Below, in pieces: positions 18,338 to 59,049 of a stretch of 64,000 nucleotides of DNA. The notes below the pieces were generated by a model, which was not told the DNA's origin, searched no databases, and was given only the letters and a program-made list of their open reading frames with translations. Both the position numbers and the translations under genes were made by a program. This DNA is from an uncultured Gammaproteobacteria bacterium. GTDB taxonomy: Bacteria > Patescibacteriota > Patescibacteriia > Magasanikbacterales > JBBTXJ01. The stretch lies in assembly GCA_964610305.1 (NCBI GenBank), contig CAZSVL010000001.1:108781-172780 (forward strand), written 5' to 3'. Numbering within the stretch: position 1 is the stretch's first letter; every line of letters starts with the position of its first letter.

Positions 18338-18401
18338 TAAGTAGTAATTCTTAAATAGTGCTTAAAAATGGCTAAATTAAGCTATTTTTTTAGTTTATGA
18401 C

Positions 18402-18430: not shown

Positions 18431-18517
18431 AGTATAGTCCTCAAAATGGGATAGCCGTACCTGGCACCGTTTTGAGGGTGACGTATCTAACAAAACACAC
18501 ACACCTTAGGGGATTCA

Positions 18518-19570
18518 GTGACCACTAACCTTCGTGAAGAGTTTGACGCCCTCACGGGTACCGATGAAATGAGCGTTGAGGGTGCACTGGAGCACCTTCG
18601 CACTCAGGTGCGGGAAGAGGCCTGCGTTTTTGACGCTCCGGCCATGCTAGAGCAGCTTGACATGATCGCTTTGGTGGAGGAGGGGACTATTGTTCCGGCC
18701 GAGCTGGAGCTTGAAGTCTGCGAGCCTTCTTTGGACGAGCTGGTGGAAGCTGCTCTGGACCGAGAGGATCCAGAAGTGGACCGCGAGCTGGTAGAGAGTC
18801 TGCTCGGAGAGGATGATGGCTTTGAGGGCGGAGCGGTCTTCTATGCCCAGGACATGGCAGACGCTGGCTGGGAGCTCTCTGATCTGGATCACCTTCGTGG
18901 TCTGGAGGCGCTCTCTGACTCTCCGGAGCTAGAAGCGCTTGACGTGGACTACTGGGATCGGATGGACGTCTTGGACGCCCAGGAGAGGGCCCGACGCGCC
19001 AAGGCGTGGAAGTCCTTTTCAACCGACCCGGAGCCCCGCTTGCGTAGGCTGACGGTCATTTCCACTACCGTAGCTCGTGAGGAAGAGACGTACGTGGACA
19101 TCACCGTCTCTGACGGCGAGCACGCGGTGGCCACTTCTGAGCATTCGGTCTACATTCATCAGGATGTCCGTGGTGTTGCTGTGGTGAAGGCCACGGCTTG
19201 GGACATCTCTGACGATCAGATCGTTTACATCAGCGGCTGGGATGCCGTCTTGCGGGGAATCGCTCGTACGGGTATCTTCTTTGCGGTGCACATGGAGCAG
19301 ATCATCAGTCGCGCAAAGCCTAGCGCCTCTAGTGACCCTGCGATCGGCAAGATCGTGGTGGCCAAGGTCGTCAAGCACCTGCGCTCCGGCGTTTTGGTGC
19401 GAAACGAGCACGGTCAGAAGGGTCTGATCGGTGTGGAGACGATCAAGGGAGTTGGCTCAGCAGCCAACGCCATGTCGTTCCTTCGCTCCAAGTGTCCTGT
19501 GGGTCGTGAAGTGACCGTAGAGATCGTGGCTCGCCGCGATCAGGGCGATTTCGTCCTGAAGCTCTCCTAG
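18518..19570 (+). CDS. hypothetical acidic protein with C-terminal S1/OB-like domain; GC-anomalous gene
   Basis: 350-aa ORF with GTG start; about 58-60% GC against about 45% in flanking genes; no stop for 350 codons is highly non-random at this GC; D/E/L-rich N-terminal half; C-terminus GKIVVAKVVKHLRSGVLV...GLIGVETIKG...VTVEIVARRDQGDFVLKLS resembles an S1 domain. Confidence 0.6.
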   Translation: MTTNLREEFDALTGTDEMSVEGALEHLRTQVREEACVFDAPAMLEQLDMIALVEEGTIVPAELELEVCEPSLDELVEAALDREDPEVDRELVESLLGEDDGFEGGAVFYAQDMADAGWELSDLDHLRGLEALSDSPELEALDVDYWDRMDVLDAQERARRAKAWKSFSTDPEPRLRRLTVISTTVAREEETYVDITVSDGEHAVATSEHSVYIHQDVRGVAVVKATAWDISDDQIVYISGWDAVLRGIARTGIFFAVHMEQIISRAKPSASSDPAIGKIVVAKVVKHLRSGVLVRNEHGQKGLIGVETIKGVGSAANAMSFLRSKCPVGREVTVEIVARRDQGDFVLKLS

Positions 19571-19669: not shown

Positions 19670-19870
19670 CTCACCATGAGGGAGGACATGTGAGGCTACG
19701 CTTAGAATTCTGGCGACACAGACAGGTTTTGCTAAGCCGACAAATTGGCGAGCCTGAGGTAAGGCGTAGGGGAGTTAGGCCAAGGATTGTATATCTGCGG
19801 CGCATGAGTATGAGAAGAATTGGACGTAGGTAAAGTCAAGTCAGGCTAAGTAGGCAAGCCTGACTTTTTT
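19670..19870 (+). ncRNA. candidate small RNA (about 200 nt, promoter-to-terminator, no ORF)
   Basis: bounded by the promoter-like element above and a perfect 8-bp hairpin gtcaggct (19840-19847) / agcctgac (19857-19864) plus T6 (19865-19870); GC-rich; contains only tiny ORFs. Confidence 0.4.
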
Positions 19871-20840
19871 AATCTGCCTTTTTGAGAGGATGAAAGTCTG
19901 TATGTGTCTTTTCTGCAAAGCGGTCAGATGCATGCACGTAACGCGTTGTGGTATCTAGAGATTCGTGGCCTAAAAGCACCTGAATGGCGGCCGGGTTCGC
20001 TCCGGATTCTGCCAAGTACGTAGCAAAACCATGTCTGAGGGTGTGCGCAGAGATGGGTACATTAATACCAAGAAGCTCTCGGTATTTTTTTATTTTTGAC
20101 TGAAGATAGTTAGGCGATATTCTTCGCTTTTTACTGCCATCTTTTGATCCTGAGCCGCGGTACGGAATAAAAACTGCCGGTGCTTCATCATCTCTGAGTT
20201 TTAGATATGCTTGCAGGTGTCTATACGCACGTGGCGTTAAATACACAAATCTCTCTTTTCGGCCTTTGCCTTTTATAAAAATGCGACCAGAGGAGTCAAT
20301 TTGATCTCGGTTAAGGTTCAGCAACTCTGAAATGCGCATGCCAGTGGAGAAGAGTACTTCAAGCATGGCACGGTTACGCTGGGCGAGGAGGGGATTTTTC
20401 TCAAGCTCTGATGGGGACTCAATAAGCGCCACAAGTTCATTGAGCTCACCAACGCGCGCATGTTTCTTATCGGTTTTAACTAATCTAATGGCACCCGCAG
20501 CAAGAGGGTAGGGGAGGTCCATTTCTACCAAATATTTGAGGTAGGCGCGCAGTGAGCTCAAGTGGCGGTTAACAGAGAACGGTGTAAGCTTTTGCTTTGA
20601 TTTTGATTTTGTTGGGGTAACTCTGTCGGTAGAGTAGAGGTAGGCCTTGTATTGCTCAATGACCTTTTTATCAATGCTTTTAAACGCAAGGCCATGCTCT
20701 GTCATAAAGTGTGAAAAGACCAGCAAGTCTCGCTCGTAATTATAAAGCGTTTCTTTGGAATAGTTATTAGTTTGCAGTGACAATAAGAAGTCATCTAAGT
20801 GATGAAGAGATTGGTTACCTGTGGATAACTTTTTGCTCAT
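19869..20840 (-). CDS. xerC: tyrosine recombinase XerC/XerD family
   Basis: C-terminal catalytic region ...HTLRHGFATYLAESGANPAAIQVLLGHESLDTTTRYVH (R..H..R..Y tetrad context); N-terminal core-binding domain. Confidence 0.9.
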   Translation of the reverse strand: MSKKLSTGNQSLHHLDDFLLSLQTNNYSKETLYNYERDLLVFSHFMTEHGLAFKSIDKKVIEQYKAYLYSTDRVTPTKSKSKQKLTPFSVNRHLSSLRAYLKYLVEMDLPYPLAAGAIRLVKTDKKHARVGELNELVALIESPSELEKNPLLAQRNRAMLEVLFSTGMRISELLNLNRDQIDSSGRIFIKGKGRKERFVYLTPRAYRHLQAYLKLRDDEAPAVFIPYRGSGSKDGSKKRRISPNYLQSKIKKYRELLGINVPISAHTLRHGFATYLAESGANPAAIQVLLGHESLDTTTRYVHASDRFAEKTHTDFHPLKKAD

Positions 20841-40343: not shown

Positions 40344-41805
<1,462 letters not shown>

Positions 41806-41813
41806 GGTGTTAT

Positions 41814-43406: not shown

Positions 43407-43425
43407 CGAGTGCGGTTTTTTTATT

Positions 43426-43496
43426 GTCATCGCGAGGAGTGAAGCAACGTGGCGATCCCGTCGGGATTGCTTCGCAGTTTCACTGCTCGCAATGAC
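43426..43496. repeat. 71-nt hairpin repeat, copy 2 (GTCATCGCGAGGAGTGAAGC...CACTGCTCGCAATGAC)
   Basis: see 41735-41805; lies between the small ORFs and the atpA stop. Confidence 0.7.
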
Positions 43497-43504
43497 GTCT
43501 TGTT

Positions 43505-45396: not shown

Positions 45397-45980
45397 TTTT
45401 CAAGGACATCTTTAACCGCCTTTTCACTCTTGCTGGCGTCCATTTCTTGTTCCAGAAGCTTTGCTGTTGCGGTTGCTACAAGCTGCGCTGCATGGCTTGC
45501 GATATCTTGCTGAGCTTCTGCTTTTTGCGTCTCTATCTGTTTTTTTGCGCCTGCTACAAGCGCTGCAATTTCTTGCTGCGTTTTCTCTCTTTGCAGTGCC
45601 GCTTGTTTTTCTGCTTGCTGCGATGATTCTGCCATAAGAGCTGCGGCTTGCTGCTTTGCTTCTGTCATTTTTTTATCATAATCCTGCTCTGCTGCTGCAA
45701 GGCGTGTTTGCATTTCCTGGGCATTGTCTATCCCCTCTTGGATTTTTGCCTGACGCTCATTCATTATTTTTAGAAGCGGCTTGTAAGCCATCTTCCATAG
45801 AATTAGCAGGATCAGAGAAAAATTAAAAAGCTGCGCTAAAAACAGCTTTTTGTTTATACCAAGAGAACCGAGTGGTCCCGCTGTGGGCTCGGCGGTGTGC
45901 GCTACTTCTGCTGCGCCTACGGCAGCGTCGGCAACTACGTGCGCAGCCTCCGTGGCTGCATGTGCGATTTCTATAAACAT
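45393..45980 (-). CDS. atpF: F1Fo ATP synthase b subunit
   Basis: single N-terminal TM then a long Ala/Gln/Glu-rich helix; the ORF-track N-terminal extension (to 46079) is translation of the 14-mer tandem repeat, and the true start is MFIEIA (cat 45978-45980). Confidence 0.8.
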   Translation of the reverse strand: MFIEIAHAATEAAHVVADAAVGAAEVAHTAEPTAGPLGSLGINKKLFLAQLFNFSLILLILWKMAYKPLLKIMNERQAKIQEGIDNAQEMQTRLAAAEQDYDKKMTEAKQQAAALMAESSQQAEKQAALQREKTQQEIAALVAGAKKQIETQKAEAQQDIASHAAQLVATATAKLLEQEMDASKSEKAVKDVLEK

Positions 45981-45986
45981 TTGGCA

Positions 45987-46118
45987 ATAAGTAACAAGTA
46001 GCAAGTCAATAAGTAACAAGTAGCAAGTAACAAGTAGCAAGTAACAAGTAGCAAGTAACAAACTTGTTAATACGCACACTGCGAAATTGCTACTTGTTCC
46101 TTGTTACTTGCTACTTTC
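45987..46118. repeat. tandem 14-nt repeats (GTAACAAGTAGCAA, about 5 copies) followed by their inverted copy, forming a long imperfect hairpin in the atpE-atpF spacer
   Basis: gtaacaagtagcaa repeated 45991-46060; inverted ttgctacttgttccttgttacttgctac at 46088-46115. Confidence 0.7.
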
Positions 46119-46425: not shown

Positions 46426-46437
46426 ATATTCTTATTA

Positions 46438-46510
46438 AGTAACAAGTAGCAAGGAACAAGTAACAATTTTTCGCGCTTTTTTTGTTACTTGCTGCTTGTT
46501 ACTTGCTGCT
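46438..46510. repeat. second copy of the GTAACAAGTAGCAA-based hairpin (atpB-atpE spacer)
   Basis: gtaacaagtagcaaggaacaagtaac ... gttacttgctgcttgttacttgctgc inverted arms around a T-rich loop. Confidence 0.65.
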
Positions 46511-47627: not shown

Positions 47628-49910
47628 TCAGGAATTATTATTTCCGTTACCACCGTTTTTGCCTCTTCTCGTCTTTTTGGGTGGCTCTTTGGGGCCTTCT
47701 GCATCAAGTCTGTCGCGCAGTTCTCTTCCTATTTCTGCGTACTTCGCGTCAATTTTATCTCTTTGTTTTCTACTACCCCGAACATAGCCGCTTGCTTCTT
47801 TGAGCATTTCTACGGTTATCCATTTTTTGTTGTCTTGCCCTCTTAATCTTTGATACCTGGTGTTTCCACGATCTGCATCGGCTTGAAAACGCGCCTCTTG
47901 CTTTTGCAGCTCATCAATAACAGACTTTTTGACCGCTTCCTTATCATCATCACTGTCTACGCCCGGGTAATGATAAATATGGTAGAGCGTCTGCACTGAT
48001 GCTCCTCTTGGATCTCTGTCTGCATAGCTAAAGACATCAGATCTGTTGCGCTGAGGCCTTGCCTCTAGGAGTCTGAGCATCTCATTAAACTCCATCGTAA
48101 AGTCTAGCTTTTGGTTTTCTTTTGTGAGCTGTTTTTTATATATGGCAAGGTGTCCTCTAATTATATCTCCTTGTGGAAGATCAAAATCTATTTCTTGAGA
48201 GTTTCCGTGCTCGTCTTTGCCAATGGCTAAAAAGAATGAGTGTTTGCGGGGCTGCCATACTAGCACATTGTTAACGCCAAAAGCCTTTGCCGTTTGCTGT
48301 GGTGGCATATTCCTACCCTCAGCATCTATCATGATATACGTGGGGCCAAATTTGGTATCTACCACGTACCCGCGCGATTGCCAGTAACCAAACATTCTTA
48401 TGTTGTGGGCAATTTGCTTTTCTTTTGCTTCAACTACTTCCCTGAGCGTGCCGGTTTTGGTGCCGCGCCTATCGGTATATTCAAATGATCTGTCTAAATC
48501 TTCCTGGGAGATATGATCTTCTGGTTTGTATTTTTTAAGCAGCTGATAAACCAGCTCTCTGGGTACCTTAAAGTCATTAGCTATGCCCCAGAGCGTATCA
48601 GCAGACTCTCCATAAAAACCGTATGAGCTCTCTGGCGAGCCCTCCACAGGCATCTCTCCGTTATCATGTGCCGTAACAAATGCCATGAGTTTTTCTAGCG
48701 CTGGGTCTTTTTCAATGAGGCCGGCATCAGAAAAATATTCATATATGAGCTGAGCGCCAGAGGTTTCTCTTTCTGACTGGTCTGCGGTGTGATGGTCTAC
48801 CGTGATTCTAAACTCTCCCTCTCCCATGTCATCGTAATCAGGGAATTCAAAATGCATGCCGTTGTCGCCTGGTTTTGCCGTTAGCTCATGCTCTAGCCGC
48901 TTGGCAGAATCCATGGTGTCAAATTGCAGCACGATTGGATCAGCTGTTCCCTCTGTGCCGGGAGCTACCATTTCTACATTCTTTTCCTTGCCTTTTACTT
49001 TGACATTAAAGCCGGCTTTACCCAAAAGCCATATGCCAAATTTTACATCTAAGTTTGCCTGATCATAAGCATGTGGCTTCCACGCCTCTTGGCTTTGATC
49101 CCACTGCATTCTTCCGCGCGTTGCCAGCTTGAGATATTTTTTTATGAGCTCTGGCCCACGCTCTGCTATGGCTTTATCTATTTCTTCTTGTGGTAGGTCC
49201 TTAAATTCTTCAAATTTATGCGGTTGCTTTTGTATCGCGGCAAGTACCGCCATTAGGAGCACCATAACTTTTGCCTCTCTCTTGCGTTCATGTGGCTTTA
49301 GCGGCACTTCTTTGGCTGTCTCCGTAACTTCAATTTCCGTCGTGGCTGGCGGCTCTGCTTCAGTCATGAAGGTGTCCATTACGTCTAGGGCATCGGTTAC
49401 TTTTTCTTCATGCTCAGTTGGCTCTGGATCGTCTTTTTCTTTTTTAGCCATTGCCAAAAGAGCAGCTCTTTCTTTTTCTACTCTGATTTCTTCTTCTTTC
49501 TGTCTCTTTTGCGCCAATGCCCTCAGGAGTTCAGATTTTCTCTCTAGTTTTGATTGTGTTTTTTCAAGCGCATTGCGTTGCATTGACAACGCGCTACTCA
49601 CCACCGCATAAGCGCTCTGGTTTTTTCCAATAAGCAGTGGGTTGATAAGATCAGCAAATTCTCCAAGACGTTCTCTGTAATTCTCCGACGTAACAGAATC
49701 ATGCATTATGGCTTCCCAATCTTCTAGGCTGCCGCCTTCTTCTATCCATTCGCTGAGTTCCTCTGCCTGATCAGCTGAGGGAACCTCTGTTTGCGCCTGC
49801 AGCAAAATCAAAGATTGCGCCTTAGTAAGTTCACTAATGGCGCTCTTAATTTTTTCTACATCCGCGGAGCTTACCTCCAGCAGGCTATCCACCCTGCTTT
49901 TCATGGGCAT
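47628..49910 (-). CDS. large hypothetical protein (760 aa) with N-terminal coiled-coil, internal DHH-like motif and basic Gly/Asn-rich C-terminus
   Basis: long ORF in AT-normal context; ITVDHHTAD segment; C-terminus KKTRRGKNGGNGNNNS; no confident family. Confidence 0.55.
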   Translation of the reverse strand: MPMKSRVDSLLEVSSADVEKIKSAISELTKAQSLILLQAQTEVPSADQAEELSEWIEEGGSLEDWEAIMHDSVTSENYRERLGEFADLINPLLIGKNQSAYAVVSSALSMQRNALEKTQSKLERKSELLRALAQKRQKEEEIRVEKERAALLAMAKKEKDDPEPTEHEEKVTDALDVMDTFMTEAEPPATTEIEVTETAKEVPLKPHERKREAKVMVLLMAVLAAIQKQPHKFEEFKDLPQEEIDKAIAERGPELIKKYLKLATRGRMQWDQSQEAWKPHAYDQANLDVKFGIWLLGKAGFNVKVKGKEKNVEMVAPGTEGTADPIVLQFDTMDSAKRLEHELTAKPGDNGMHFEFPDYDDMGEGEFRITVDHHTADQSERETSGAQLIYEYFSDAGLIEKDPALEKLMAFVTAHDNGEMPVEGSPESSYGFYGESADTLWGIANDFKVPRELVYQLLKKYKPEDHISQEDLDRSFEYTDRRGTKTGTLREVVEAKEKQIAHNIRMFGYWQSRGYVVDTKFGPTYIMIDAEGRNMPPQQTAKAFGVNNVLVWQPRKHSFFLAIGKDEHGNSQEIDFDLPQGDIIRGHLAIYKKQLTKENQKLDFTMEFNEMLRLLEARPQRNRSDVFSYADRDPRGASVQTLYHIYHYPGVDSDDDKEAVKKSVIDELQKQEARFQADADRGNTRYQRLRGQDNKKWITVEMLKEASGYVRGSRKQRDKIDAKYAEIGRELRDRLDAEGPKEPPKKTRRGKNGGNGNNNS

Positions 49911-49957
49911 ATTATAACATAAAACGGGCTGGAAAACCCGATTTTAATAAGCTGGTT

Positions 49958-50803
49958 TTAGAGTGAAGCGTCAAATCTAATATTAGTGTACCCTGCATTG
50001 CAGACAGAATCTCTGAGTTCTTCTTGGTATTGATACATGACTATTTTCCCTCCGACGTACAGGTCAGCAGGAATGCTTTTTGCACGAACACTCTTCAAAA
50101 TCAAGTGTTTTCCAATATGTTTTGGCAGCTCAGCTAGAGATGTGATTTTATTATTACTTAAGTCTAAACTCCAATCTACCCGTCTGGGAGCATGTTTTAA
50201 TGAAGTGATTGCGTTGTTTCTTAGCAGTAAGTCTCCTTGGACATGATCTGGCAGACCTTGCAAAGAGCTTATTTTGTTACCCTCAAGGTCTATGCCGGCC
50301 CCTAAATATGTGGGCATGCCTTCAAGTGATTCAATCTTGTTATAACTCACATCAAAATGGCCTGAAACAGATTTTGGGAAACCGACTAAAGAAGTGATAC
50401 CGGATTCAGTAATAACAAGGTCTCCTTCAACAGCAACTAAATTGGGAGGCAATTCAGTTACTCCTGCATCTAAAAAATGAAGACTTTGTTTTGCGTGTAC
50501 ACCATCTGTTTTGAATTCAAACGTATCTTCTATCCACTCTGCGGGGTTTTCCTTGCCCAGACCAAATTTTACGGCCCATTGTATGTATGTTTCTCTTAAG
50601 ATCTTTATTCTCTCTTTTGCCTCTAGGAATTGCGTCATCTCATTTGCCGCGTCCAAACCAGTTGGAATAGTAGTCTTTTTTTCTGCGAGAGTCATCCTCC
50701 GCATCATCTCCCCTACTTTAGGATCATCAAAAACAGAAGAGAGCGCTTCCTCTGTGGAAAGCTTCTTGTCTCTTCCTTTTTTAAACGGGTTGGTGGGGTT
50801 CAT
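49958..50803 (-). CDS. leucine-rich-repeat protein with conserved basic N-terminal module (paralogue 1)
   Basis: C-terminal LxxLxLxxNxIxSL-type repeats (LEGNKISSLQGLP..., LSNNKITSLAELP...); N-terminal 37 aa nearly identical to the ORF at 53640-54290. Confidence 0.6.
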   Translation of the reverse strand: MNPTNPFKKGRDKKLSTEEALSSVFDDPKVGEMMRRMTLAEKKTTIPTGLDAANEMTQFLEAKERIKILRETYIQWAVKFGLGKENPAEWIEDTFEFKTDGVHAKQSLHFLDAGVTELPPNLVAVEGDLVITESGITSLVGFPKSVSGHFDVSYNKIESLEGMPTYLGAGIDLEGNKISSLQGLPDHVQGDLLLRNNAITSLKHAPRRVDWSLDLSNNKITSLAELPKHIGKHLILKSVRAKSIPADLYVGGKIVMYQYQEELRDSVCNAGYTNIRFDASL

Positions 50804-51640
50804 TTATACGTTGAAGAGGGTGGAGGCGTTTTTTTCTGTTTCTTCTATGACCTGATCTGCAGACATGTTCTTTAGTTCTGCCACTTTTGCAGCTACTTCT
50901 TCTACCATCCACGGTTCATTGCGTTTTCCGCGATGTTTTCCGGGTGCAAGGTATGGCGCGTCTGTTTCTATGAGGAGCTGCTCCATTGGTACGCGCCTTA
51001 CGGCTTCTAAAAGGCGCTCCTGAGCCTGCGGATCGCTCTTGCGGGGTGGAAAGGTGATAATTCCCGTAAAGCCAATGTAGAGCCCAAGAGAGGCCAGTTT
51101 TTCTGCCTCTGATTCATTTCCTGTAAAGCAATGGACCGTTGCTTGTATGCTAGGTTTTCTCTCTTTCCACACATCATAAAGATCATCATAAGCATCTCTG
51201 CAGTGAATAACCATGGGTTTGTTTAGCTTTTCTGCCAACTTTATGTGTTGCAAAAAAACCTCTCTTTGCTTCTTTCTTATTTCATCCTCAGTTACATGAT
51301 CTGGCATGCGGTAATAATCCAGGCCGGCTTCTCCAATGGCAACAACCGAAGACTCTTGCGCCAACGTTTTGTAATAATCATAATCGAAATCTTCCTCTCT
51401 GCTTTTAAATGCCCCTTCTTTCTCATCCACATATCTGCTGTGCAGATGCGTGGGGTGCAAACCAATGCTGGCGAAAAATTGATCTGGATATTGTGCTGCT
51501 AGCTCTGCTGCCGCGGCGCTCGTGTCCTTTTGCGTGCCAACAATAAGGCATTTAGTGTTGGATTTTAAAATGCGCGCAATAACATCTGTGCGATCTTGTT
51601 CATACGCTTTAAACTGCAAGTGGCAGTGAGAATCAAACAT
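50804..51640 (-). CDS. tatD: TatD-family metal-dependent DNase/hydrolase
   Basis: MFDSHCHLQF start plus further His/Asp/Glu metal-binding positions. Confidence 0.9.
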   Translation of the reverse strand: MFDSHCHLQFKAYEQDRTDVIARILKSNTKCLIVGTQKDTSAAAAELAAQYPDQFFASIGLHPTHLHSRYVDEKEGAFKSREEDFDYDYYKTLAQESSVVAIGEAGLDYYRMPDHVTEDEIRKKQREVFLQHIKLAEKLNKPMVIHCRDAYDDLYDVWKERKPSIQATVHCFTGNESEAEKLASLGLYIGFTGIITFPPRKSDPQAQERLLEAVRRVPMEQLLIETDAPYLAPGKHRGKRNEPWMVEEVAAKVAELKNMSADQVIEETEKNASTLFNV

Positions 51641-51649
51641 GAGATTGTA

Positions 51650-52159
51650 TTACAAAAACCTTATGAATTTTGAGATTAAGTATGGCGCGTGGTCTACGGT
51701 TTTTTCTATGATAGGGCTTACTACGTCTATTACTTTAGATGCCTCTATGGATCCAGCAAGCCTACCTGAGAGCGGGAATTTTTCTACGAGGTATACAAAG
51801 ATTCCCAGCACCACGGTTCCCTCCAAAAAACCAAAGAGTCCACCTAAAAGACGGTTCATGCTTCTGCCAAAGGGTATGGGCAGTATATGCAAAAGTCTCT
51901 CTGCGAGCCATACGGATACACCCACTAAACGAGAGATGGTAGTAAACAAAAGTAAGAACATTACCACTTTTGCAGTGTTTATGTTCCAGTCTACTCTGGT
52001 AACCGCCCACGCTGCCACCTGCTCAAAATAGGTGTTGGCTACGTATGCTCCAAAAATGGTTCCCACTAGGGATCCCACAGCATGAAGCAACCCCGTAAAG
52101 ATACCAAAAAAAGCAAAGCCGGATAAGAGGATCAGGATTACTACGTCAAAATATGACAT
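51650..52159 (-). CDS. cvpA: CvpA-family membrane protein
   Basis: 169 aa, four TM segments, CvpA-like N-terminus MSYFDVVILILLSGFAFFG. Confidence 0.7.
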   Translation of the reverse strand: MSYFDVVILILLSGFAFFGIFTGLLHAVGSLVGTIFGAYVANTYFEQVAAWAVTRVDWNINTAKVVMFLLLFTTISRLVGVSVWLAERLLHILPIPFGRSMNRLLGGLFGFLEGTVVLGIFVYLVEKFPLSGRLAGSIEASKVIDVVSPIIEKTVDHAPYLISKFIRFL

Positions 52160-52168
52160 GAAATTTTT

Positions 52169-53635
52169 TTATGCAAGCCTAGGAAAAAGCGGCTCGCCCT
52201 TCTTTGCTTCTATTGTAGCATGATCTCCGCTTGCCTTTACAGTAATTTGCTGCCTGATTTTCTCTGAGGTCTCTGGAAGAAATGGAGAGAGTAAAAAAAC
52301 CACATGATGTAAATCTGCAAGTATGTCTAAGACAAGCTTTTTGTTTTTAGTAGTGTCTAGATCCTCCCATGGTTTTTTGTCCGTAAGTTCCACATTTGCT
52401 CTTCGGATAATCTTCCAGATAGAATCTAAGGCCTGGTGAAAAGCTAGTTTTTCAAGAGAATCATTAACCTCCTTGTGCGCATCTTCTATGTGATCTGGTG
52501 GAGATTTTGGCACTGCATATTCTTGCGGCTTCTTAAACGCTTTCTCAAAAAGCGTAGTGGCACGCATCACCAAATTGCCCAGTTCATTGGCCAGCTCTGC
52601 GCTGTATCGCTGTTTGAGCCGCTCAATAGAAAAATCTCCGTCCTCGCCAAAGGTAATTTCTTTAAGAAGATAATAACGTAGAACATCATTTCCATATTTA
52701 TCTGCTATTTCTATGGGGTCTACCACATTACCTATTGTTTTAGACATTTTTTGTCCTTCCACCGTAAAAAAGCCATGCGCGTAGACGGTTTTTGGGAGTG
52801 GCACGCCAGCACTCAGCAGCATTGCCGGCCAATACGCGCAGTGAAATTTTATAATGTCTTTCCCTACCAAATGAAGACTAGCGGGCCAGAATTTTTCAAA
52901 AAGCCCTTGATCCTTTGCACCGTAGCCTAGCGCGCTAATATAATTTATAAGCGCATCAAACCAAACATAAATGGTTTGGCTGTCATCTCCCGGAACCGGT
53001 ATCCCCCACTCTGAGTTTTTTCTGGATATAGAAAAATCTTTTGCGTGATCCTTAACAAAGGCAATAACTTCATTCCTCCTGCTTTTTGGCTGAATAAAAT
53101 CAGGGTGTTTTTTAAAATATTCTAAAAGCTGATCCTGGTATTTTGAGAATCTAAAAAAGTAGTTTTCTTCTGAGAGTTTTTCTGGCTCACGTTTGTGATC
53201 GGGGCATAATCCATCAATTAAATCTTGCTCTGTTTTATAGCCCTCACATCCGGTGCAGTAAAGACCCTCATACGTGTCTTTGTAAATATCTCCATTTTCT
53301 AAACAATCATTCCAAAATTTCTCTACCGTTTTTTTGTGCCGATCCTCTGATGTTCTTATAAAGTCATCATGTGTAATGTCCAAATGCTCCCATGTTTTTT
53401 TCCACGCGGCTGACATATCATCAACATATTTTTGAACAGACGCTCTGTCTGGCGCTGGGGCGCTCTCTACATTCTTTTGGGCATTTTCATCGGTTCCAAT
53501 CAAAAAATGAACGCTTTTTGAAGATAAGCGGTGATATCTAGCCAACACATCTGCGGCAATAGTAGTATAAGCGTGCCCGATATGTGGCTTGTCATTTACA
53601 TAGTAGATGGGCGTTGTAATGTAGTAGTTTTTCAT
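52169..53635 (-). CDS. metG: methionine--tRNA ligase (short form)
   Basis: TPIYYVNDKPHIGHAYT (HIGH) and KMSKTIGN (KMSKS) motifs. Confidence 0.95.
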   Translation of the reverse strand: MKNYYITTPIYYVNDKPHIGHAYTTIAADVLARYHRLSSKSVHFLIGTDENAQKNVESAPAPDRASVQKYVDDMSAAWKKTWEHLDITHDDFIRTSEDRHKKTVEKFWNDCLENGDIYKDTYEGLYCTGCEGYKTEQDLIDGLCPDHKREPEKLSEENYFFRFSKYQDQLLEYFKKHPDFIQPKSRRNEVIAFVKDHAKDFSISRKNSEWGIPVPGDDSQTIYVWFDALINYISALGYGAKDQGLFEKFWPASLHLVGKDIIKFHCAYWPAMLLSAGVPLPKTVYAHGFFTVEGQKMSKTIGNVVDPIEIADKYGNDVLRYYLLKEITFGEDGDFSIERLKQRYSAELANELGNLVMRATTLFEKAFKKPQEYAVPKSPPDHIEDAHKEVNDSLEKLAFHQALDSIWKIIRRANVELTDKKPWEDLDTTKNKKLVLDILADLHHVVFLLSPFLPETSEKIRQQITVKASGDHATIEAKKGEPLFPRLA

Positions 53636-53639
53636 GGTG

Positions 53640-54290
53640 CTATCCTAGCGTATATCCAACGACTTGTATAGATTGCCTTAGAGCGGTGTTGTCTTCTGAC
53701 GTATAAACCTTGCCGCCGATAGATAACCCTGCGGGGATACTGCTAACCGATAGGTCGGAAAGGTATAAATTGCCGCCAATTTCCACGGGCAGGTCTTCTA
53801 GAGAAGTAATATTCTGACAATTTACAAGATACAGGTGGTATTCAATATGTCTGGGCAGGGCGTCTAATTTTGAGATAAGTGTTCTGGAGAGATCTAGGCT
53901 GCCCCCTAGAGCATTGAATTTTGGAGGGAATTTTGGATCATCGCCTTCACGAAATATCAAGCCAGCATTAAGCGTTACTCCTGAGGAATCAATGTGTATT
54001 CTATCTTCTAGCCACCTCTTAGGATCTAGTTTTCCAAAGCCAAATTTTGTCACAAACCGCAGGTATAATTCTTTTAGCTCTTGCTTATTACCTTCTTTCT
54101 CGTACTTAGATATCTCTTCTGATATTGCCTCAGAGATGCCAAACGGTTGACTAGTGGTCAGCTTGTTGTCCGTGGTTGTCATCCGCCTCATCATCTCCCC
54201 TACTTTAGGATCATCAAAAACAGAAGAGAGGGCGTCTTCTGCTGAGACTTTTTTTGGTCTACCTTTTTTGAAGGGATTTGTTGCGCGCAT
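53640..54290 (-). CDS. leucine-rich-repeat protein with conserved basic N-terminal module (paralogue 2)
   Basis: N-terminus MRATNPFKKGRPKKVSAEDALSSVFDDPKVGEMMRRMT matches paralogue 1; the DNA is about 50 nt near-identical (about 54180-54235 vs 50690-50745); LRR-like C-terminus. Confidence 0.6.
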   Translation of the reverse strand: MRATNPFKKGRPKKVSAEDALSSVFDDPKVGEMMRRMTTTDNKLTTSQPFGISEAISEEISKYEKEGNKQELKELYLRFVTKFGFGKLDPKRWLEDRIHIDSSGVTLNAGLIFREGDDPKFPPKFNALGGSLDLSRTLISKLDALPRHIEYHLYLVNCQNITSLEDLPVEIGGNLYLSDLSVSSIPAGLSIGGKVYTSEDNTALRQSIQVVGYTLG

Positions 54291-54301: not shown

Positions 54302-54952
54302 CTAGCTTGAGATTACTATGGTAAACTCGCCTCTTTTTTCTGTCATTGCCTCTTTTACTTCTTTGATGGTGCCGCGGTAGAAGGTCTCATGTAGTTTTGT
54401 TAACTCTCGTGCTACTACAATTTGTCTTTTTGGATCCAGTTGCTCTGACAGCTCATTAAGAAGTTTTTCAATACGATGAGTTGATTCAAAAAAAACCGTG
54501 GTTATTGGTTGGCTTGTTGCATGTTTGATAAATTTTGTGCGTCCCTTTTTTTGTGGTATGAAACCAAAGAAGCAGTATTTGTCGGTAGGAAAGCCGCTTG
54601 CTTGCAAAGCTGTTGTTACGGCAGATGCTCCTGGAATAGGAATCACTGTTCCTCCAGAATTCCATATGGCATCCACAAGTTTTCCTCCCGGGTCTGAAAT
54701 TCCCGGTGTTCCGGCGTCGCTGACCAGAGCCACTGTTTTATCTTTAATTGTTTTTAACGTCTTTGTGGTGTCACTATGCGCGTCAAATCTTTTTAGGGGT
54801 GTATGTATACCAAAATGAGACGAGAGTTTTTTGGTAACTCTGGTGTCCTCAGCTAGGATTACATCTACTGTTTTGAGCGTTTCTAGGGCTCTACTAGATA
54901 TGTCTCCTAGGTTTCCTATGGGGGTGGCTACAATGTAGAGGGTGGTTTTCAT
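54302..54952 (-). CDS. rsmI: 16S rRNA (cytidine1402-2'-O)-methyltransferase RsmI
   Basis: tetrapyrrole-methylase fold N-terminus MKTTLYIVATPIGNLGDISSRALETL. Confidence 0.9.
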   Translation of the reverse strand: MKTTLYIVATPIGNLGDISSRALETLKTVDVILAEDTRVTKKLSSHFGIHTPLKRFDAHSDTTKTLKTIKDKTVALVSDAGTPGISDPGGKLVDAIWNSGGTVIPIPGASAVTTALQASGFPTDKYCFFGFIPQKKGRTKFIKHATSQPITTVFFESTHRIEKLLNELSEQLDPKRQIVVARELTKLHETFYRGTIKEVKEAMTEKRGEFTIVISS

Positions 54953-54975
54953 TTTTGCAGTTGCGGTGCCTTTTT

Positions 54976-55020
54976 CTTGAGATCCCGGATATTTTGCTAC
55001 GCAAAATTCCGGGATGACAG
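54976..55020. repeat. partial GAGATCCCGGAT...TTCCGGGATGACAG hairpin element
   Basis: shares both arms with the elements at 56486-56615. Confidence 0.6.
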
Positions 55021-55050
55021 GGGGTAGTTTTAGAATGACATGGGTATGAT

Positions 55051-55338: not shown

Positions 55339-55443
55339 AGTGCCATTTTAGCATTGTAGTATAAAAAGAGCCACAGCAGCTTTTTTCATTTTTTTTGGTT
55401 TCTGAAATGTGGCTAATTTAAGCCAATTTTGTCAAGTTACCTC

Positions 55444-55472
55444 TTGACAAAATTGACAAAGTGTGCTATACT
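55444..55472 (+). promoter_or_regulatory. sigma70 promoter TTGACA-17-TATACT with TGTGC extension; 38-nt sequence duplicated at 57377-57414
   Basis: ttgaca 55444-55449, spacer 17, tatact 55467-55472; ctcttgacaaaattgacaaagtgtgctatactgctttt is identical at both sites. Confidence 0.65.
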
Positions 55473-55479
55473 GCTTTTG

Positions 55480-56162
55480 TTGCGTTAAGACAGTTCTGCG
55501 CCCACTTCTGTTTCTGTCTTTTGGGTAGTACGGAGCTTGTGCCGAAAAAGGCCCTTAGCGTAACGCTCTTTTTGAAAAGTGTTGGTTTTCCTGCCAGCGC
55601 GCAATGGAGGATGTAGTATGTCTGAAAGGCCCGATCTGCCGCCCGCCTTGTGGAGGCCCGCAGTATTGGAGTCCGTCAGGCCCAGGATCTCAATGGTGAT
55701 TGAGTGAACGGAGCACGGTTGTGGCTAGCGCCTGGCGCTAGGGTTGCTTGCCTCCACAAGCAGCACTTTCCATGTCTGTGGGAGGTTCAACTAGCTAGAA
55801 AGCTTGCAGGAATTCACCGTTTTCTGTGTATGGCCGGCATACTTGCTGACGCGGGGTGCGAGAGATCGCAGCCGAACCAAACCGCTCAGTTAGCGTGGCC
55901 ACGTAGTGGTCGGCTTGTAAAGCTTGTGAGGAGCTACTGATCCTCTGTGGTGATCCCATGGAGGAGCCCACAAGCTGGTATCCTATGAGAGGCTGAAGTG
56001 ATGCAGACCTCTACTCGCCTAACAGTGAGAGCCTTTGCAAGGGCCAGTACGACGCTCCCGCGGGGAGAGTACGTGCAAGGATATTACACAGAAACGTCAC
56101 AAGCGTGGTACTGCGCAGGTTCCACGTGGCCCTCGTCGACAACCGTTGACGAGGGCTTTTTT
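55480..56162 (+). ncRNA. candidate long GC-rich noncoding transcript (about 680 nt), promoter to terminator, no long ORF
   Basis: starts about 8 nt after the -10; ends at hairpin gccctcgtcgac/gttgacgagggc (56129-56156) plus T6; about 57% GC; long-range helix gccttgtggaggc (55645-55657) / gcctccacaagc (55750-55761); contains a 29-codon ORF with perfect SD at 55618-55707. Confidence 0.4.
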
Positions 56163-56164: not shown

Positions 56165-56746
56165 TTATAGTCCTAAAAAAAGATCGTCTCCCAATTCTAA
56201 ATCTTCAAATTCCCCTTTTGTGTAATCCCCTTCTGGGAGTTTGCGCGCCGCTTCTACTTTTGAAGCTGCCTCCGGGGGGATGACCTCTGAGATTATGTTT
56301 CCGTTAACGGCTATATTGTTTGCTACTTCACAATAGCCCAGGCAGCCTCTGTATTGCAGAGAGACTTCCTCACTTTCTTGCCCTTCTTTGATTCCAAAGT
56401 GATTTTCTAGCTCTTGCATAATATAGCGCGCATGCTTGGGGCCGCAGGTTTTGGAATCGCAGACTTCAATTCGATCTACCTTTTTGTCATCCCGGACTAG
56501 ATCCGGGATCTCAAGTGATGCGTCTACCGACGATTTTTTACTTGAGATCCCGGATAATTCACTATGTGAATTTCCGGGATGACAGGTGGAGGGTTGTGAA
56601 TTTCCGGGATGACAGATTGGTTTGTTTTGTCCGCATGTGCAGTTTTCGCATTTTGACGGGATCCCTCGGCTCTCCTGCGGATCGCTCGGGGTGACGGGTG
56701 GGTTACCCATAGTATTTTTCGCTATAAAATCTAATGAGTTGCTCAA
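56165..56746 (-). CDS. thioredoxin-like [2Fe-2S] ferredoxin (NuoE-like); N-terminal region of uncertain reality
   Basis: C-terminal CDSKTCG ... GCLGYCE (C-x4-C ... C-x3-C); the N-terminal about 90 codons translate the CCGGGATGACAG repeat elements and overlap the upstream NifU gene by 44 nt, so the true start is probably internal. Confidence 0.65.
   Translation of the reverse strand: MSNSLDFIAKNTMGNPPVTPSDPQESRGIPSKCENCTCGQNKPICHPGNSQPSTCHPGNSHSELSGISSKKSSVDASLEIPDLVRDDKKVDRIEVCDSKTCGPKHARYIMQELENHFGIKEGQESEEVSLQYRGCLGYCEVANNIAVNGNIISEVIPPEAASKVEAARKLPEGDYTKGEFEDLELGDDLFLGL
56486..56615. repeat. GTCATCCCGGAC...TTCCGGGATGACAG hairpin element with tandemly duplicated right end, embedded in the 5' part of the 2Fe-2S ferredoxin ORF
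   Basis: termini gtcatcccgga (56486-56496) and tccgggatgac (56573-56583); inner inverted repeat ccgggatctcaagt/acttgagatcccgg; second copy of gtgaatttccgggatgacag at 56596-56615. Confidence 0.65.
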
Positions 56747-57362
56747 TTTCCGGAATGCTCTCTGGCGAGCCCACTCCTACTTTTAGTTTTTTTTGTACCT
56801 CTTCTATGGTTTGAGCCCCTTCAAGCACTGCTTCTTCTATATCTTTGTCTGTAATATTTAAAACGGGATCAATTATTTTTGCCGCAACCACTTTTATTCT
56901 GTCATGTTGGCCAGTGTTTCTAAAATATTGATTGATGGCTTTTCTGAAGGCCTTGTCTACCAAAACACTGCAGTGGATTTTTCTGTTTGGTAGTCCTCCT
57001 AGGCGTTCCATTATGTGTTGAGGTTTTACGTTTAGTGCTTCCTCTATAAGCATTCCACCGTTTTCTGTGATCATAACAGAGAACATGCTGGTGGCAGCAA
57101 TGGCAGATCCGCATCCAAAGGTTTTCCATTTCAATTCAGTAATGTTTTCAGTGTCTGAAACGTTAATCCATACATCCATAACGTCTCCGCACGCAGGTGA
57201 TCCTACGGTGCCGCGTGCATCAAAGCTGTTTTCATCAGGTTCTTCTAGGAGTAAATTCTTTGGATTAAAAAAATGGTCTTTTACGATGTCTGAATATACC
57301 CAGGATTCTCCTGTGTGATCATTGACTACGTCTTTCCCCTTTTTTTGTGTAATTTTAGCCAT
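56703..57362 (-). CDS. NifU/IscU-type Fe-S cluster scaffold protein with C-terminal extra domain
   Basis: GSPACGD, FGCGSAIA and HCS cluster-ligand motifs; likely start MAKITQ (cat 57360-57362); ORF-track start 57395 overlaps the divergent promoter. Confidence 0.85.
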   Translation of the reverse strand: MAKITQKKGKDVVNDHTGESWVYSDIVKDHFFNPKNLLLEEPDENSFDARGTVGSPACGDVMDVWINVSDTENITELKWKTFGCGSAIAATSMFSVMITENGGMLIEEALNVKPQHIMERLGGLPNRKIHCSVLVDKAFRKAINQYFRNTGQHDRIKVVAAKIIDPVLNITDKDIEEAVLEGAQTIEEVQKKLKVGVGSPESIPEIEQLIRFYSEKYYG

Positions 57363-57379
57363 TTTTGTGTGTTTAGCTC

Positions 57380-57408
57380 TTGACAAAATTGACAAAGTGT
57401 GCTATACT
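57380..57408 (+). promoter_or_regulatory. second copy of the TTGACA-17-TATACT (TGTGC) promoter
   Basis: ttgaca 57380-57385, tatact 57403-57408; fires into the iscU-iscS intergenic region; T7 at 57521-57527 after a structured 100-nt segment. Confidence 0.6.
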
Positions 57409-57741
57409 GCTTTTAGATGGTAATGCTGGTGCTGGATGAGGGATGCGATGTGTTGCAAAGGCCTTGTGACATGTTGTAGACCGCTTGAGTTCAGGCCGAC
57501 ACCAGTCGGAAATTAAGGCGTTTTTTTCTCGAAGCCAGCGGAATATGCGCAGTTATGTATTGCCAAAGGATACGGCTCCTGAGGGCGGGCGGCGCGTACT
57601 GCTTCAAAAACATTACCATCTAACCTCTCTTCTTCACCCTGCAGCTTGCGTCTTTGACGTGGCGGCTGTAGCCTCTGCCTAAGGGCACGACTGTAACAGT
57701 CGTTGGTGAAAACAGACACACCGGTCTGAAGAGGGGATTTT

Positions 57742-59049
57742 TTATTTCATCCAATGCGGCTTTCCTTCCCCGACAAATGCCTTTTGCATGGTCGGTTTTT
57801 TGTTATCCTCTGTTGGTTTGCCCGCATCATCCAGCTTAAGATTCACCGGAGAGATATCGCGCAGTCTCTGAACAATCTCTGGCAGCAAATTCAGTACATA
57901 ATCTAAGTCTTCTTTTGTGGTGCTTCTTCCTAGCGTAAATCTCATACTTCCGTGTGCGTATTCGTATGGTTTTCCGATAGCAAGAATAACATGTGACGGA
58001 TCTAAAGACTCAGACGTGCAGGCGCTTCCGGTAGACATGGCTATTCCGTACTCATCAAGGTACAACAAGAGTGCCTCGCCTTCAATATCTAAAATACTGA
58101 CGTTTACATTGTTGGGCAAACGCTCTGTCACGTGTCCATTGATTACTATTTTTGGAATTCTCTTTATTATTTCCTGAGTAAAGTAATCGCGAAGTTTTGT
58201 TAGTCTTTCAGATTCGCTTTGTGCATCAGCTCGTACAATTTCTACGGCTTTTGCGAGTCCCACAATGCCAGCAACATTTTCCGTACCAGCACGCATACGC
58301 ATTTCTTGTCCTCCGCCGTGGATGAGTGGCTTTATTTTTACGTGATCAGCTTTATACAAAACACCAACTCCCTTTGGGCCGTAAATTTTGCTTCCGTTAA
58401 AGGTAAGTAAGTCTGCATGTAATTTTTTTACATCAATGTCTAGGTAATTTATTGCTTGGCATGCATCGGTATGGAGATAGGGAGCCTTGTTGGGCTTTAT
58501 ATCATTATCTTTTTTCCATCGCAGGAGAGCCCTGCCGATATCGGCAATAGGATTAATGCTGCCTATTTCATTATTGGCGTACATGACGGAGATTAAAATA
58601 GTATCATCTTTGAGCGCAGCAATAACATCCTTTGGACTTACCATTCCAAATTCGTCAGTATCCAAATACGTAACCTCAAAGCCTTCTTTCTCTAGCGCCT
58701 GGCAGCTGTGCAGCACGGCGTGATGTTCAACTTTGGTGGTTATAATGTGACCGCTCCCCTGCTTTTTGGCAACGCCATAGATGGCCATATTGTCACTCTC
58801 TGTTCCAGAGCCGGTGAAAATTATATTACGTGGATTTGCTCCCAGTGCCTGTGATACGGTTTTGCGCGCCCGATCCACAGCGAGTTTTCCGTTTCTTGCT
58901 TTTTTATACAAGCCTCCCGGATTTCCAAATTCCTCTTTTAAAAAGGGTGTCATAATTTCAAAAACCGCTTGCTCAAGCGGTGTTGCTGCGGCGTGATCAA
59001 GGTATACCCGCCGTCTATTCTCTACTTTTGGAAATGGTTTAAAATCCAT
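57742..59049 (-). CDS. iscS: cysteine desulfurase (IscS/NifS class V aminotransferase) with C-terminal extension
   Basis: PLP-lysine context ...FNGSKIYGPKGVGVL... and catalytic-Cys loop STGSACTSESLDPSHV. Confidence 0.95.
   Translation of the reverse strand: MDFKPFPKVENRRRVYLDHAAATPLEQAVFEIMTPFLKEEFGNPGGLYKKARNGKLAVDRARKTVSQALGANPRNIIFTGSGTESDNMAIYGVAKKQGSGHIITTKVEHHAVLHSCQALEKEGFEVTYLDTDEFGMVSPKDVIAALKDDTILISVMYANNEIGSINPIADIGRALLRWKKDNDIKPNKAPYLHTDACQAINYLDIDVKKLHADLLTFNGSKIYGPKGVGVLYKADHVKIKPLIHGGGQEMRMRAGTENVAGIVGLAKAVEIVRADAQSESERLTKLRDYFTQEIIKRIPKIVINGHVTERLPNNVNVSILDIEGEALLLYLDEYGIAMSTGSACTSESLDPSHVILAIGKPYEYAHGSMRFTLGRSTTKEDLDYVLNLLPEIVQRLRDISPVNLKLDDAGKPTEDNKKPTMQKAFVGEGKPHWMK

What the first reader, a model, noticed from the sequence alone, without database searches (positions are those of the whole stretch)
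49958..54290. Two paralogous LRR proteins sharing a near-identical basic N-terminal module, bracketing tatD-cvpA-metG
ORFs 49958-50803 and 53640-54290 both begin M(R/N)(A/P)TNPFKKGR.KK(L/V)S.E.ALSSVFDDPKVGEMMRRMT. The underlying DNA is about 50 nt near-identical (about 50690-50745 vs 54180-54235). Both continue into divergent leucine-rich-repeat regions (LxxLxLxxNxIxSL-like) and a similar C-terminal SIPA(D/G)L..GGK(I/V) segment. Neither has a classical signal peptide. LRR proteins are typical host- or partner-interaction modules, and a conserved non-signal-peptide N-terminus could be a secretion or localisation tag for a non-Sec pathway. The pair probably arose by duplication with C-terminal diversification.
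Basis: partly seen in the sequence, partly recalled or inferred. Interest (0 to 1): 0.6.

Follow-up and report, generated by a model that had tools for sequence, protein, structure and literature searches.

The report
Tagged leucine-rich-repeat gene family
Two genes wedged into a housekeeping operon of an uncultured bacterium belong to a tiny, fast-changing family of leucine-rich-repeat binding proteins that all start with the same 38-residue tag, which may be a delivery or docking label but has not been tested.

Summary
ORF A (49958-50803, minus strand, 281 aa) and ORF B (53640-54290, minus strand, 216 aa) are paralogues (BLASTP E 1e-44). Their first 38 residues are 84% identical and include a 53-nt stretch that is 96% identical at the DNA level. 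They bracket tatD, cvpA and metG.

An exhaustive search of 1.84 billion representative proteins, plus neighbouring loci, found the N-terminal module in only 11 genes from four assemblies. It is always at the N-terminus and always followed by a variable linker and repeats of this kind. A syntenic relative carries five such genes at the same operon junctions. Housekeeping neighbours are 62-96% identical between the two genomes. Family members reach at most about 43%, yet the tag is retained (51% versus 27% mean identity).

No member has a Sec or Tat signal or a transmembrane segment. The DNA identity is specific to A, B and one relative, so it looks like a short gene-conversion tract rather than an RNA element.

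The tag's function is untested. A delivery or docking tag is the leading inference.

The parts
49958..50803 (-). ORF A, 281 aa: N-module, linker, helical cap, 7 repeats of about 22 residues, C-terminal cap
50690..50803 (-). N-module of A (codons 1-38): a basic tail MNPTNPFKKGRDKK, then two short helices (EEALSSVF, then GEMMRRMT)
   Evidence: Family alignments. HMM hits are always N-terminal. Low to moderate pLDDT of 44-72, with helices at residues 17-25 and 28-39.
50657..50689 (-). Variable polar linker of A (about codons 39-49)
   Evidence: pLDDT below 50 at residues 40-46. Sequence and length are not conserved across the family.
50450..50656 (-). Helical N-cap and first beta strands of A (codons 50-118), with the motif Y..W....G.G..P..W
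   Evidence: pLDDT above 90, helices at 49-79 and 87-94. This region aligns to residues 15-148 of YopM, including YopM's helical cap.
49961..50449 (-). LRR solenoid of A (codons 119-281): 6 units of the form P..V.G.L.L..N.I.SL.G plus a C-terminal cap unit (IPADLYVGGKI...GYT)
   Evidence: Beta strands recur every 22 residues in the model. Profile hits to YopM, FlrP, SspH and IpaH.
53640..54290 (-). ORF B, 216 aa: same architecture with 3 repeat units plus the C-terminal cap unit
   Evidence: ORF list. BLASTP against A, E 1e-44. Family alignment. There are 11 nt after the rsmI stop and 4 nt before the metG start.
54177..54290 (-). N-module of B (codons 1-38)
   Evidence: 103 bits against the N-module profile. 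84% identical to the N-module of A.
50691..50743 (-). Near-identical DNA block, copy in A (perfect 42-nt core at 50702-50743)
   Evidence: blastn 96.2% over 53 nt. Codon table. Synonymous-site test p 4.6e-6.
54178..54230 (-). Near-identical DNA block, copy in B (perfect 42-nt core at 54189-54230)
   Evidence: Same evidence as the copy in A. The Logan contig L029 breaks inside both copies.
50804..53635 (-). Context: tatD (50804-51640), cvpA (51650-52159) and metG (52169-53635), the housekeeping genes between the two family members
   Evidence: Pfam hits. Same order in the relative L003, which has two extra family genes between cvpA and tatD.
54302..54952 (-). Context: RsmI-type methyltransferase gene immediately upstream of B
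   Evidence: Pfam TP_methylase 1.4e-30. Syntenic in L003.
49925..49940 (-). Terminator-like hairpin with a T-run in the 47-nt spacer after A. This suggests A is the last gene of the rsmI-B-metG-cvpA-tatD-A transcription unit.
   Evidence: Consensus scan and sequence. This is a pattern match only.

Best explanation
A and B are members of a small, lineage-restricted multigene family of soluble proteins without signal peptides. Each member has three parts: (i) a conserved 38-residue N-terminal tag, (ii) a variable flexible linker, and (iii) a YopM/IpaH-like capped LRR solenoid.

The LRR part changes quickly, both by substitution and by gain or loss of 22-residue units. Gene copies are gained and lost at the junctions of housekeeping operons, where they are expressed by translational coupling. 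These points are shown.

The inferred mechanism is as follows. The LRR solenoids are variable binders. The invariant tag is a shared address that hands every paralogue to one common partner, most probably a non-Sec export or delivery route into or onto a partner cell. The tag sits in the same position as the N-terminal secretion signals of the related YopM, IpaH and SspH effectors. The basic NPFKK tail and the two short amphipathic helices (hydrophobic faces A20/L21/V24/F25 and M33/M34/M37) would form the recognition surface.

The near-identical DNA between A and B is a short gene-conversion tract that keeps the two tags alike in this genome.
For: Family and position:
- The tag occurs in only 11 genes. 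It is always at residue 1 and always precedes this linker-cap-repeat body.
- Mean pairwise identity is 51% for the tag and 27% for the rest.

Fast turnover:
- Housekeeping neighbours are 62-96% identical between the window and relative L003. Family members are at most about 43% identical, with no clear orthologues and different copy numbers at the same junctions: 1, 0 and 1 in the window against 2, 2 and 1 in L003.

Fold and relatives:
- The fold is an LRR solenoid.
- The nearest sequence relatives are secreted effectors: YopM 1e-13, SspH1/2, IpaH and SlrP. The alignment reaches into the YopM helical cap, so the tag occupies the place of their N-terminal secretion signal.

Tag properties:
- No hydrophobic segment in any member (maximum 19-residue Kyte-Doolittle mean 1.3 or less). 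The first 15 residues carry a net charge of +2 to +6.
- The tag and linker are predicted to be flexible (pLDDT 44-72), i.e. not part of the folded body.

Gene conversion:
- 12 of 12 identical codons in codons 21-34 against 24 of 78 elsewhere. The effect is absent in L003 paralogues.
Against: No secretion or delivery machinery was found in the 64-kb window or in the gene lists of the relative loci. The rest of the genome could not be read.

The tag was found on no cargo other than this repeat family. General secretion signals usually mark diverse cargo.

No localisation data exist.

The organism's identity and lifestyle are not established. Two scans of species-representative genomes found no relative.

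LRR similarity to effectors can partly reflect repeat convergence.
Confidence: 0.38

Rival explanations
1. Intracellular docking or assembly motif. The proteins stay in the cytoplasm, and the tag tethers the variable LRR binders to a common cytoplasmic partner or to each other by hetero-oligomerisation. The family would then act as adaptors or sensors, for example of invading phage or of host proteins.
For: No export signal of any known type. The tag is exclusive to this one family. The genes sit in cytoplasmic housekeeping operons: rsmI/metG/tatD, htpX/clpB and trmD. The two short helices with hydrophobic faces could form a small docking hairpin. Rapid diversification also fits sensor proteins.
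Against: No effector or signalling domain is attached. No hit to known defence-system models. Most characterised bacterial LRR proteins of this type are extracytoplasmic or secreted.
Confidence: 0.3
2. Cleavable leader. The tag is a pro-peptide removed at the conserved small-residue/acidic junction ([GA]31 followed by [ED]32) during export, in the manner of double-glycine leaders processed by C39-type peptidases.
For: Position 31 is G or A and position 32 is E or D in all 11 members. A Peptidase_C39_2 protein is encoded about 5 kb from one family member in L005.
Against: The spacing of hydrophobic residues upstream does not fit the double-glycine consensus (judged by inspection, from memory of that consensus). 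Conservation continues well past the putative site (MMxRMT). No C39-ABC exporter is seen next to any member. In the model the G/A-E/D junction lies inside predicted helix 28-39, just after its DP N-cap.
Confidence: 0.08
3. The conserved feature acts at the nucleic-acid level. The identical 42-53 nt would be an RNA hairpin or attenuator, or a recombination site, rather than a peptide tag.
For: Synonymous sites are frozen in codons 21-34 of A, B and L001g. Two alternative hairpins can be drawn, one of them followed by a U-run.
Against: The eight other family members vary freely at these synonymous sites while keeping the amino acids. Both hairpins pair in only 66-69% of cells against 62-65% in shuffles, with no convincing covariation. 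Folding z-scores are -0.4, +1.1 and -0.5. No Rfam hit.
Confidence: 0.05
4. No special function. The shared N-terminus only reflects a recent duplication or conversion, and the genes are decaying passengers.
For: One relative copy (L003, 168 aa) is frameshifted. The family is tiny and patchy.
Against: The tag is retained in 11 members whose remaining sequence has diverged to about 27% identity, across at least three genomes. The ORFs are intact and the folds are predicted with high confidence.
Confidence: 0.05

Closest known systems
YopM (Yersinia) and the LRR domains of IpaH, SspH1, SspH2 and SlrP: the 'LPX' subfamily of type III secreted effectors
   Different: There is no NEL E3-ligase domain. 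The repeat has one proline and a conserved Gly (L.G.P..V.G.L.L..N.I.SL) rather than LPxLP. The N-terminal segment is strongly conserved in sequence, unlike typical type III signals. No type III system is known or seen here. The genes sit in housekeeping operons, not in pathogenicity islands.
Salmonella SPI-2 effectors that share a conserved N-terminal translocation domain (SspH1, SspH2, SlrP, SseI, SseJ, SifA, SifB). This comparison is recalled from the literature and was not checked here.
   Same: The principle is the same: several paralogous or unrelated effectors carry one conserved N-terminal address in front of variable bodies, some of which are LPX-type LRRs.
   Different: That domain is about 140 residues with a WEK(I/M)xxFF motif. 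It has no sequence relation to the 38-residue NPFKK...ALSxVF...GEMMxRMT tag, and it marks diverse cargo rather than one family.
FlrP, a small LRR protein of the Vibrio polar flagellar motor (PDB 8z5u chain 0)
   Different: FlrP has a Sec signal peptide and acts in the periplasm on the flagellar rod. The present family has no signal peptide but has the N-terminal tag. No flagellar genes are in the window.
Listeria internalins
   Different: Internalins have Sec signals plus wall or membrane anchors and an inter-repeat Ig-like domain. There is no sequence-level relation in the profile search.

Membership tests
Leucine-rich-repeat fold | A solenoid of tandem 20-30 residue units, each contributing a beta strand to a parallel sheet, with an LxxLxLxxN-like core | tested here: met
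Leucine-rich-repeat fold | A Pfam LRR model scoring above its gathering threshold | tested here: not met
   LRR_4 scores 23.3 bits against a cut-off of 27 for A and 12.4 bits for B. No other member matches any LRR model at E 0.1 or better.
LPX subfamily (YopM, IpaH, SspH, SlrP) | Short 20/22-residue repeats with a conserved proline segment, significantly similar to family members | tested here: met
   The family profile scores YopM at 1.1e-13 and 3e-8, SspH1/2 at about 2.5e-6, IpaH7.8 at 3e-5 and SlrP at 5e-5. NCBIfam SspH2 model, LRR region, 1.9e-6. The repeat has one Pro per unit, not the LPxLP pair.
LPX subfamily (YopM, IpaH, SspH, SlrP) | An alpha-helical N-terminal cap preceding the first repeat | tested here: inconclusive
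   The model has helices at 49-79 and 87-94 with pLDDT above 90. Profile positions 48-183 align to YopM 15-148, but that single domain has an i-Evalue of only 0.011.
IpaH/SspH NEL E3 ligases | A C-terminal novel E3 ligase (NEL) domain | tested here: not met
   All members end 20-30 residues after the last repeat, and no Pfam or NCBIfam hit lies outside the LRR.
Type III secreted effectors | A type III secretion system in the same genome, and secretion that depends on the N-terminus | not testable with these tools
   Only 64 kb of a 232-kb contig and partial relative contigs could be read, and none encodes secretion-system components.
Sec, Tat or lipoprotein signal peptides | A hydrophobic h-region of about 10-20 residues after a basic n-region; a twin-arginine motif ahead of it for Tat; a lipobox Cys for lipoproteins | tested here: not met
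   The maximum 19-residue Kyte-Doolittle mean is 1.3 or less in all 11 members. The RR in 'MMRRMT' is followed by polar, charged residues. There is no N-terminal Cys.
Double-glycine (C39-processed) leader peptides | A GG/GA/GS site preceded by hydrophobic residues at conserved spacings, and an adjacent C39-ABC exporter | tested here: inconclusive
   Position 31 is G or A in all members, but positions 30-31 read VG, AG, DA or SA, and the upstream spacing does not fit by inspection. No C39-ABC exporter is next to any member; only a Peptidase_C39_2 protein about 5 kb away in L005.
Known anti-phage defence systems (PADLOC) | A match to a defence-system protein model | tested here: not met
   No hit for A, B, ORF760 or three relatives. 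One relative gives a chance-level hit at E 0.007.

The most novel reading that the evidence does not exclude
The 38-residue NPFKK...ALSxVF...GEMMxRMT module is the address label of a protein-delivery route that has not yet been recognised and does not use Sec. It would operate in an uncultured small-genome bacterium (possibly an episymbiont). Its cargo would be a rapidly diversifying set of YopM-like LRR binders aimed at a partner cell. That would make this an effector system analogous to type III LPX effectors in a lineage with no known injectisome.
Probability: 0.15. Interest if true: 0.75.

Novelty: new variant of a known kind. Interest (0 to 1): 0.4.

Why it matters
Little is known about how uncultured small-genome bacteria interact with partner cells at the molecular level. 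Here a family of variable binders carries one invariant, non-classical N-terminal tag. That gives a concrete handle: the tag can be used to fish for its receptor, whether an export machine or a cytoplasmic hub, and the LRR bodies can be used to fish for their targets. If the tag proves to be a delivery signal, it would define both a new signal and a set of candidate effectors. If it proves to be a cytoplasmic docking motif, the family is a new kind of modular adaptor. In either case the family is currently invisible to Pfam and NCBIfam.

Tried and rejected
1. RNA or DNA element behind the identical nucleotides. Single-sequence folds were not better than shuffles. Two candidate hairpins were tested on an 11-member codon alignment and showed no convincing pairing excess or covariation. 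Rfam found nothing. Other paralogues vary at these synonymous sites. Rejected as a property of the family. Short gene conversion is preferred for A, B and L001g.

2. Wider family search.
- Genome contigs with the family alignment found nothing.
- Genome contigs with the neighbouring ORF760 alignment found nothing.
- Metagenome contigs with the alignment found nothing.
- A hand-made degenerate DNA pattern for the tag gave only chance hits in metagenome contigs and viral contigs, as checked.
- The search for homologous proteins with the 45-column tag alignment returned nothing at all, not even the query proteins, so that result is uninformative.

3. Taxonomy and habitat. Cluster look-up gave no names. 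Searches for the sample accessions in the paper library gave nothing. Its gene content (MreB, MreC, PBP2, F-type ATPase, many tRNA ligases, palindromic repeats) suggests a small-genome, wall-bearing bacterium, possibly of the candidate phyla radiation. This is inference only.

4. Defence-system models gave no hit.

5. A Tat signal suggested by 'RR' was rejected because there is no hydrophobic region.

6. P0010, an 857-aa repeat protein that hit the tag profile in six stretches, is a spurious low-complexity match to 'SSFDD'-like repeats.

7. The afdb50 fold library was unavailable.

8. A literature search for LRR proteins in this group of bacteria found nothing relevant.
Full report
**What is in the sequence**

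Two minus-strand ORFs sit at the stated coordinates: A (49958-50803, 281 aa) and B (53640-54290, 216 aa). They are clear paralogues, with BLASTP 34% identity and E 1e-44.

The first 38 residues are 84% identical. Beneath them lies a 53-nt stretch with 51 identical bases, 50691-50743 against 54178-54230 (blastn E 1.8e-20). Its core is a perfect 42 nt. No third copy exists in the window.

Between the two ORFs lie tatD, cvpA and metG, and an rsmI-type methylase gene precedes B. All six genes are co-directional and tightly packed. A's ATG follows the tatD stop codon with no spacer. B lies 11 nt after rsmI and 4 nt before metG. A terminator-like hairpin follows A. An independent Logan contig is 100% identical to 50714-54218 and ends inside the repeated block at both ends.

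**The body of the proteins**

Pfam LRR models stay below their cut-offs (LRR_4 scores 23.3 against 27 bits). Three other lines of evidence show an LRR fold:
- AlphaFold gives a confident solenoid for residues 50-275 (mean pLDDT 85.7 with 6 sequences, 88.6 with 11). Strands recur every 22 residues, preceded by two long helices.
- A profile of 11 family members, searched against all PDB sequences, scores YopM at 1.1e-13, FlrP at 1.2e-12, a second YopM at 3e-8, and SspH1/2, IpaH7.8 and SlrP at 1e-5 to 1e-6.

The alignment to YopM begins in YopM's helical N-cap (residues 15-148), where 'YYNAWSEWERNAPPGNGEQ' lies opposite the family's 'Y..W......G.....W'.

A has six units of the form P..V.G.L.L..N.I.SL.G plus a C-terminal cap unit. 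B has three plus the cap. This accounts for the 65-residue difference in length.

**The N-terminal module**

Pfam, NCBIfam and PDB sequences give nothing for it. An exhaustive HMMER search of 1.84 billion cluster representatives with a three-sequence profile found eight proteins at E 1e-3 or better:
- A and B.
- Five others in which the module is N-terminal. In one, P0012, it starts at residue 19, probably because the start codon was called too early.
- One spurious repeat protein.

Reading the DNA around these hits raised the count to 11 genes in four assemblies. In every case the module is at the N-terminus. It is followed by a variable polar or acidic linker, the helical cap and repeats.

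Two members (248 aa each, in L003 and L005) carry a different repeat flavour ('LP.L..VGG..YA.SA') behind the same tag.

The conserved features of the tag are:
- A basic tail with an invariant PFK inside (T)NPFK(K).
- A first helix, E(E/D)(A/S)L(S/A)xV(F).
- A turn.
- A second helix, (G/A)(E/D)(M/L)MxRMT.

AlphaFold predicts the two short helices at residues 17-25 and 28-39, at low to moderate confidence, and a disordered linker at 40-46. No member has a hydrophobic stretch; the maximum 19-residue Kyte-Doolittle mean is 1.3 or less. The first 15 residues carry a net charge of +2 to +6, while the whole proteins are acidic. Sec, Tat and lipoprotein signals are therefore excluded.

**Evolutionary behaviour**

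Contig L003 comes from a related organism. Its gene order is fdx, rsmI, [191 aa], [211 aa], metG, cvpA, [248 aa], [193 aa], tatD, [168 aa], ORF746, atp operon. All five bracketed genes carry the tag, and most overlap their neighbour by ATGA. The window has one, none and one gene at the same three junctions.

Other members sit between an M48 peptidase gene and clpB (L005), and as a tandem pair after trmD (L007).

Housekeeping proteins of the window and L003 are 62-96% identical: metG 80%, cvpA 90%, tatD 76%. No family member of one genome is more than about 43% identical to any member of the other. Mean pairwise identity is 51% in the tag and 27% in the rest. The family therefore turns over and diverges quickly while the tag is kept. 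Both junctions occupied in the window were already occupied in the common ancestor, so A and B are old paralogues.

**The identical nucleotides**

Among codons where A and B encode the same residue, 12 of 12 are identical in codons 21-34, against 24 of 78 elsewhere (p 4.6e-6). L001g, from another metagenome, shows the same effect. The L003 paralogues do not, and they vary freely at these synonymous sites.

Two hairpins can be drawn over the block, but neither is supported:
- Single-sequence folding z-scores are not significant.
- On the 11-member alignment they pair in 66-69% of cells against 62-65% in shuffles, without convincing covariation.

I conclude that the block is a short gene-conversion tract, or very recent shared ancestry of that segment, within the lineage that holds A, B and L001g. 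It is not an RNA or DNA element of the family. Why L001g shares it cannot be resolved from a 967-bp contig.

**How it probably works**

Shown:
- A modular architecture of tag, linker and capped LRR.
- The tag occurs only with this family and only at the N-terminus.
- No classical export signal.
- Fast diversification of the binder part and of copy number.
- Embedding in housekeeping operons.

Inferred:
- The LRR bodies are variable binders.
- The tag is a common address.

I rank an export or delivery address first (0.38), for four reasons:
- The nearest relatives of the body are secreted effectors whose N-terminal secretion signal occupies exactly this position.
- Bacterial LRR proteins of this kind are overwhelmingly extracytoplasmic.
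- The tag is flexible and sits on a linker.
- The evolutionary pattern is that of interaction proteins.

A cytoplasmic docking or oligomerisation motif is nearly as likely (0.30). No export apparatus was seen, and the tag marks no other cargo. A cleaved leader (0.08), a nucleic-acid element (0.05) and a functionless relic (0.05) are minor alternatives.

**Comparison with what is known**

The body is a new, Pfam-invisible member of the short-repeat bacterial LRR group nearest to the YopM, IpaH and SspH 'LPX' proteins and to FlrP. It is not an IpaH-type ligase, because it has no NEL domain. It cannot be called a type III effector, because no such system is known or seen here.

The tag has no known relative. 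The principle of one conserved N-terminal address on several effectors has precedents, such as the Salmonella SPI-2 translocation domain. That comparison is recalled from the literature and was not checked here.

I rate the finding as a new variant of a known kind, with interest 0.4. It would be useful to people who study uncultured small-genome bacteria, but nothing functional has been demonstrated.

**Limits**

Two scans of species-representative genomes, two metagenome scans and one viral scan found no further relatives. The final protein search, with the tag alignment, returned nothing at all and is uninformative.

Noticed in passing
window 55478-56160 (+); relative L003:118-1047 (-): A stretch of about 680 nt with no ORF and 54.5% GC (background about 44%). 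It lies between a near-consensus promoter (TTGACA-17-TATACT, 55444-55472) and a strong intrinsic terminator (56128-56157). It is conserved at 73-79% in the relative, including the promoter and terminator. The fold z-score is -4.4 on the plus strand against -2.2 on the minus strand. A two-sequence consensus fold has 193 pairs, 22 of them with compensatory changes. Rfam gives no hit even at E of 1 or better. This is a candidate large structured non-coding RNA of unknown family.
   Followed up: partly
window 18372-18436, 55414-55478, 57350-57414 (+): A family of three 65-nt repeats that carry the same strong promoter. One copy drives the candidate RNA described above. One points antisense into the cysteine desulfurase gene (57742-59049, minus strand). 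One precedes a GC-rich (52%) 350-codon ORF at 18518-19570 that has no Pfam or Rfam hit and lies next to a tyrosine integrase gene at 19869-20840.
   Followed up: partly
window 47628-49910 (-); L003:8381-10621: A 760-aa protein gene always found just downstream of the last family member and upstream of the atp operon. It is 70% identical between the two genomes. It has no Pfam hit above threshold and no PDB sequence hit, and no relative was found in species-representative genomes. It contains a 'DHH'-like motif (ITVDHHTAD) and a very basic C-terminus. It is a possible partner of the family, but this was not tested.
   Followed up: partly
window 41719-41806 and 43410-43497; 54971-55036 and 56536-56601: Two pairs of GC-rich palindromic intergenic repeats, 88 nt at 90% identity and 66 nt at 79% identity. 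They flank ATP synthase genes and lie between fdx and rsmI. They resemble REP-like elements.
   Followed up: no
window 45974-46116 and 46436-46466: Tandem 14-nt repeats (AAGTAGCAAGTAAC) with inverted copies. They are located around the start of the ATP synthase b-subunit gene and in the spacer before the a-subunit gene.
   Followed up: no
L003:1344-1996 and L003:7683-8319: In the relative, rsmI is split into two ORFs (72 and 123 aa). The family member after tatD (168 aa) is truncated, and the rest of its LRR lies in another frame at 8149-8319. It also has a duplicated start of the tag (MNPTNPFKSKGERNQPNMKPNPFK). These are either pseudogenes or assembly errors.
   Followed up: partly
L003:5524-6270 and L005:8673-9419: Two 248-aa members carry the same N-terminal tag and cap but a different C-terminal repeat flavour ('LP.L..VGG..YA.SA', about 22-23 residues). 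The tag is therefore not tied to a single repeat subtype.
   Followed up: no
P0004-P0006, P0015; L028: The nearest proteins without the tag are short 'G.F.CS.N.LTSL.G.P..V' repeat proteins on small contigs full of short unannotated ORFs, which may be viral. They share the repeat and a different N-terminal cap.
   Followed up: no
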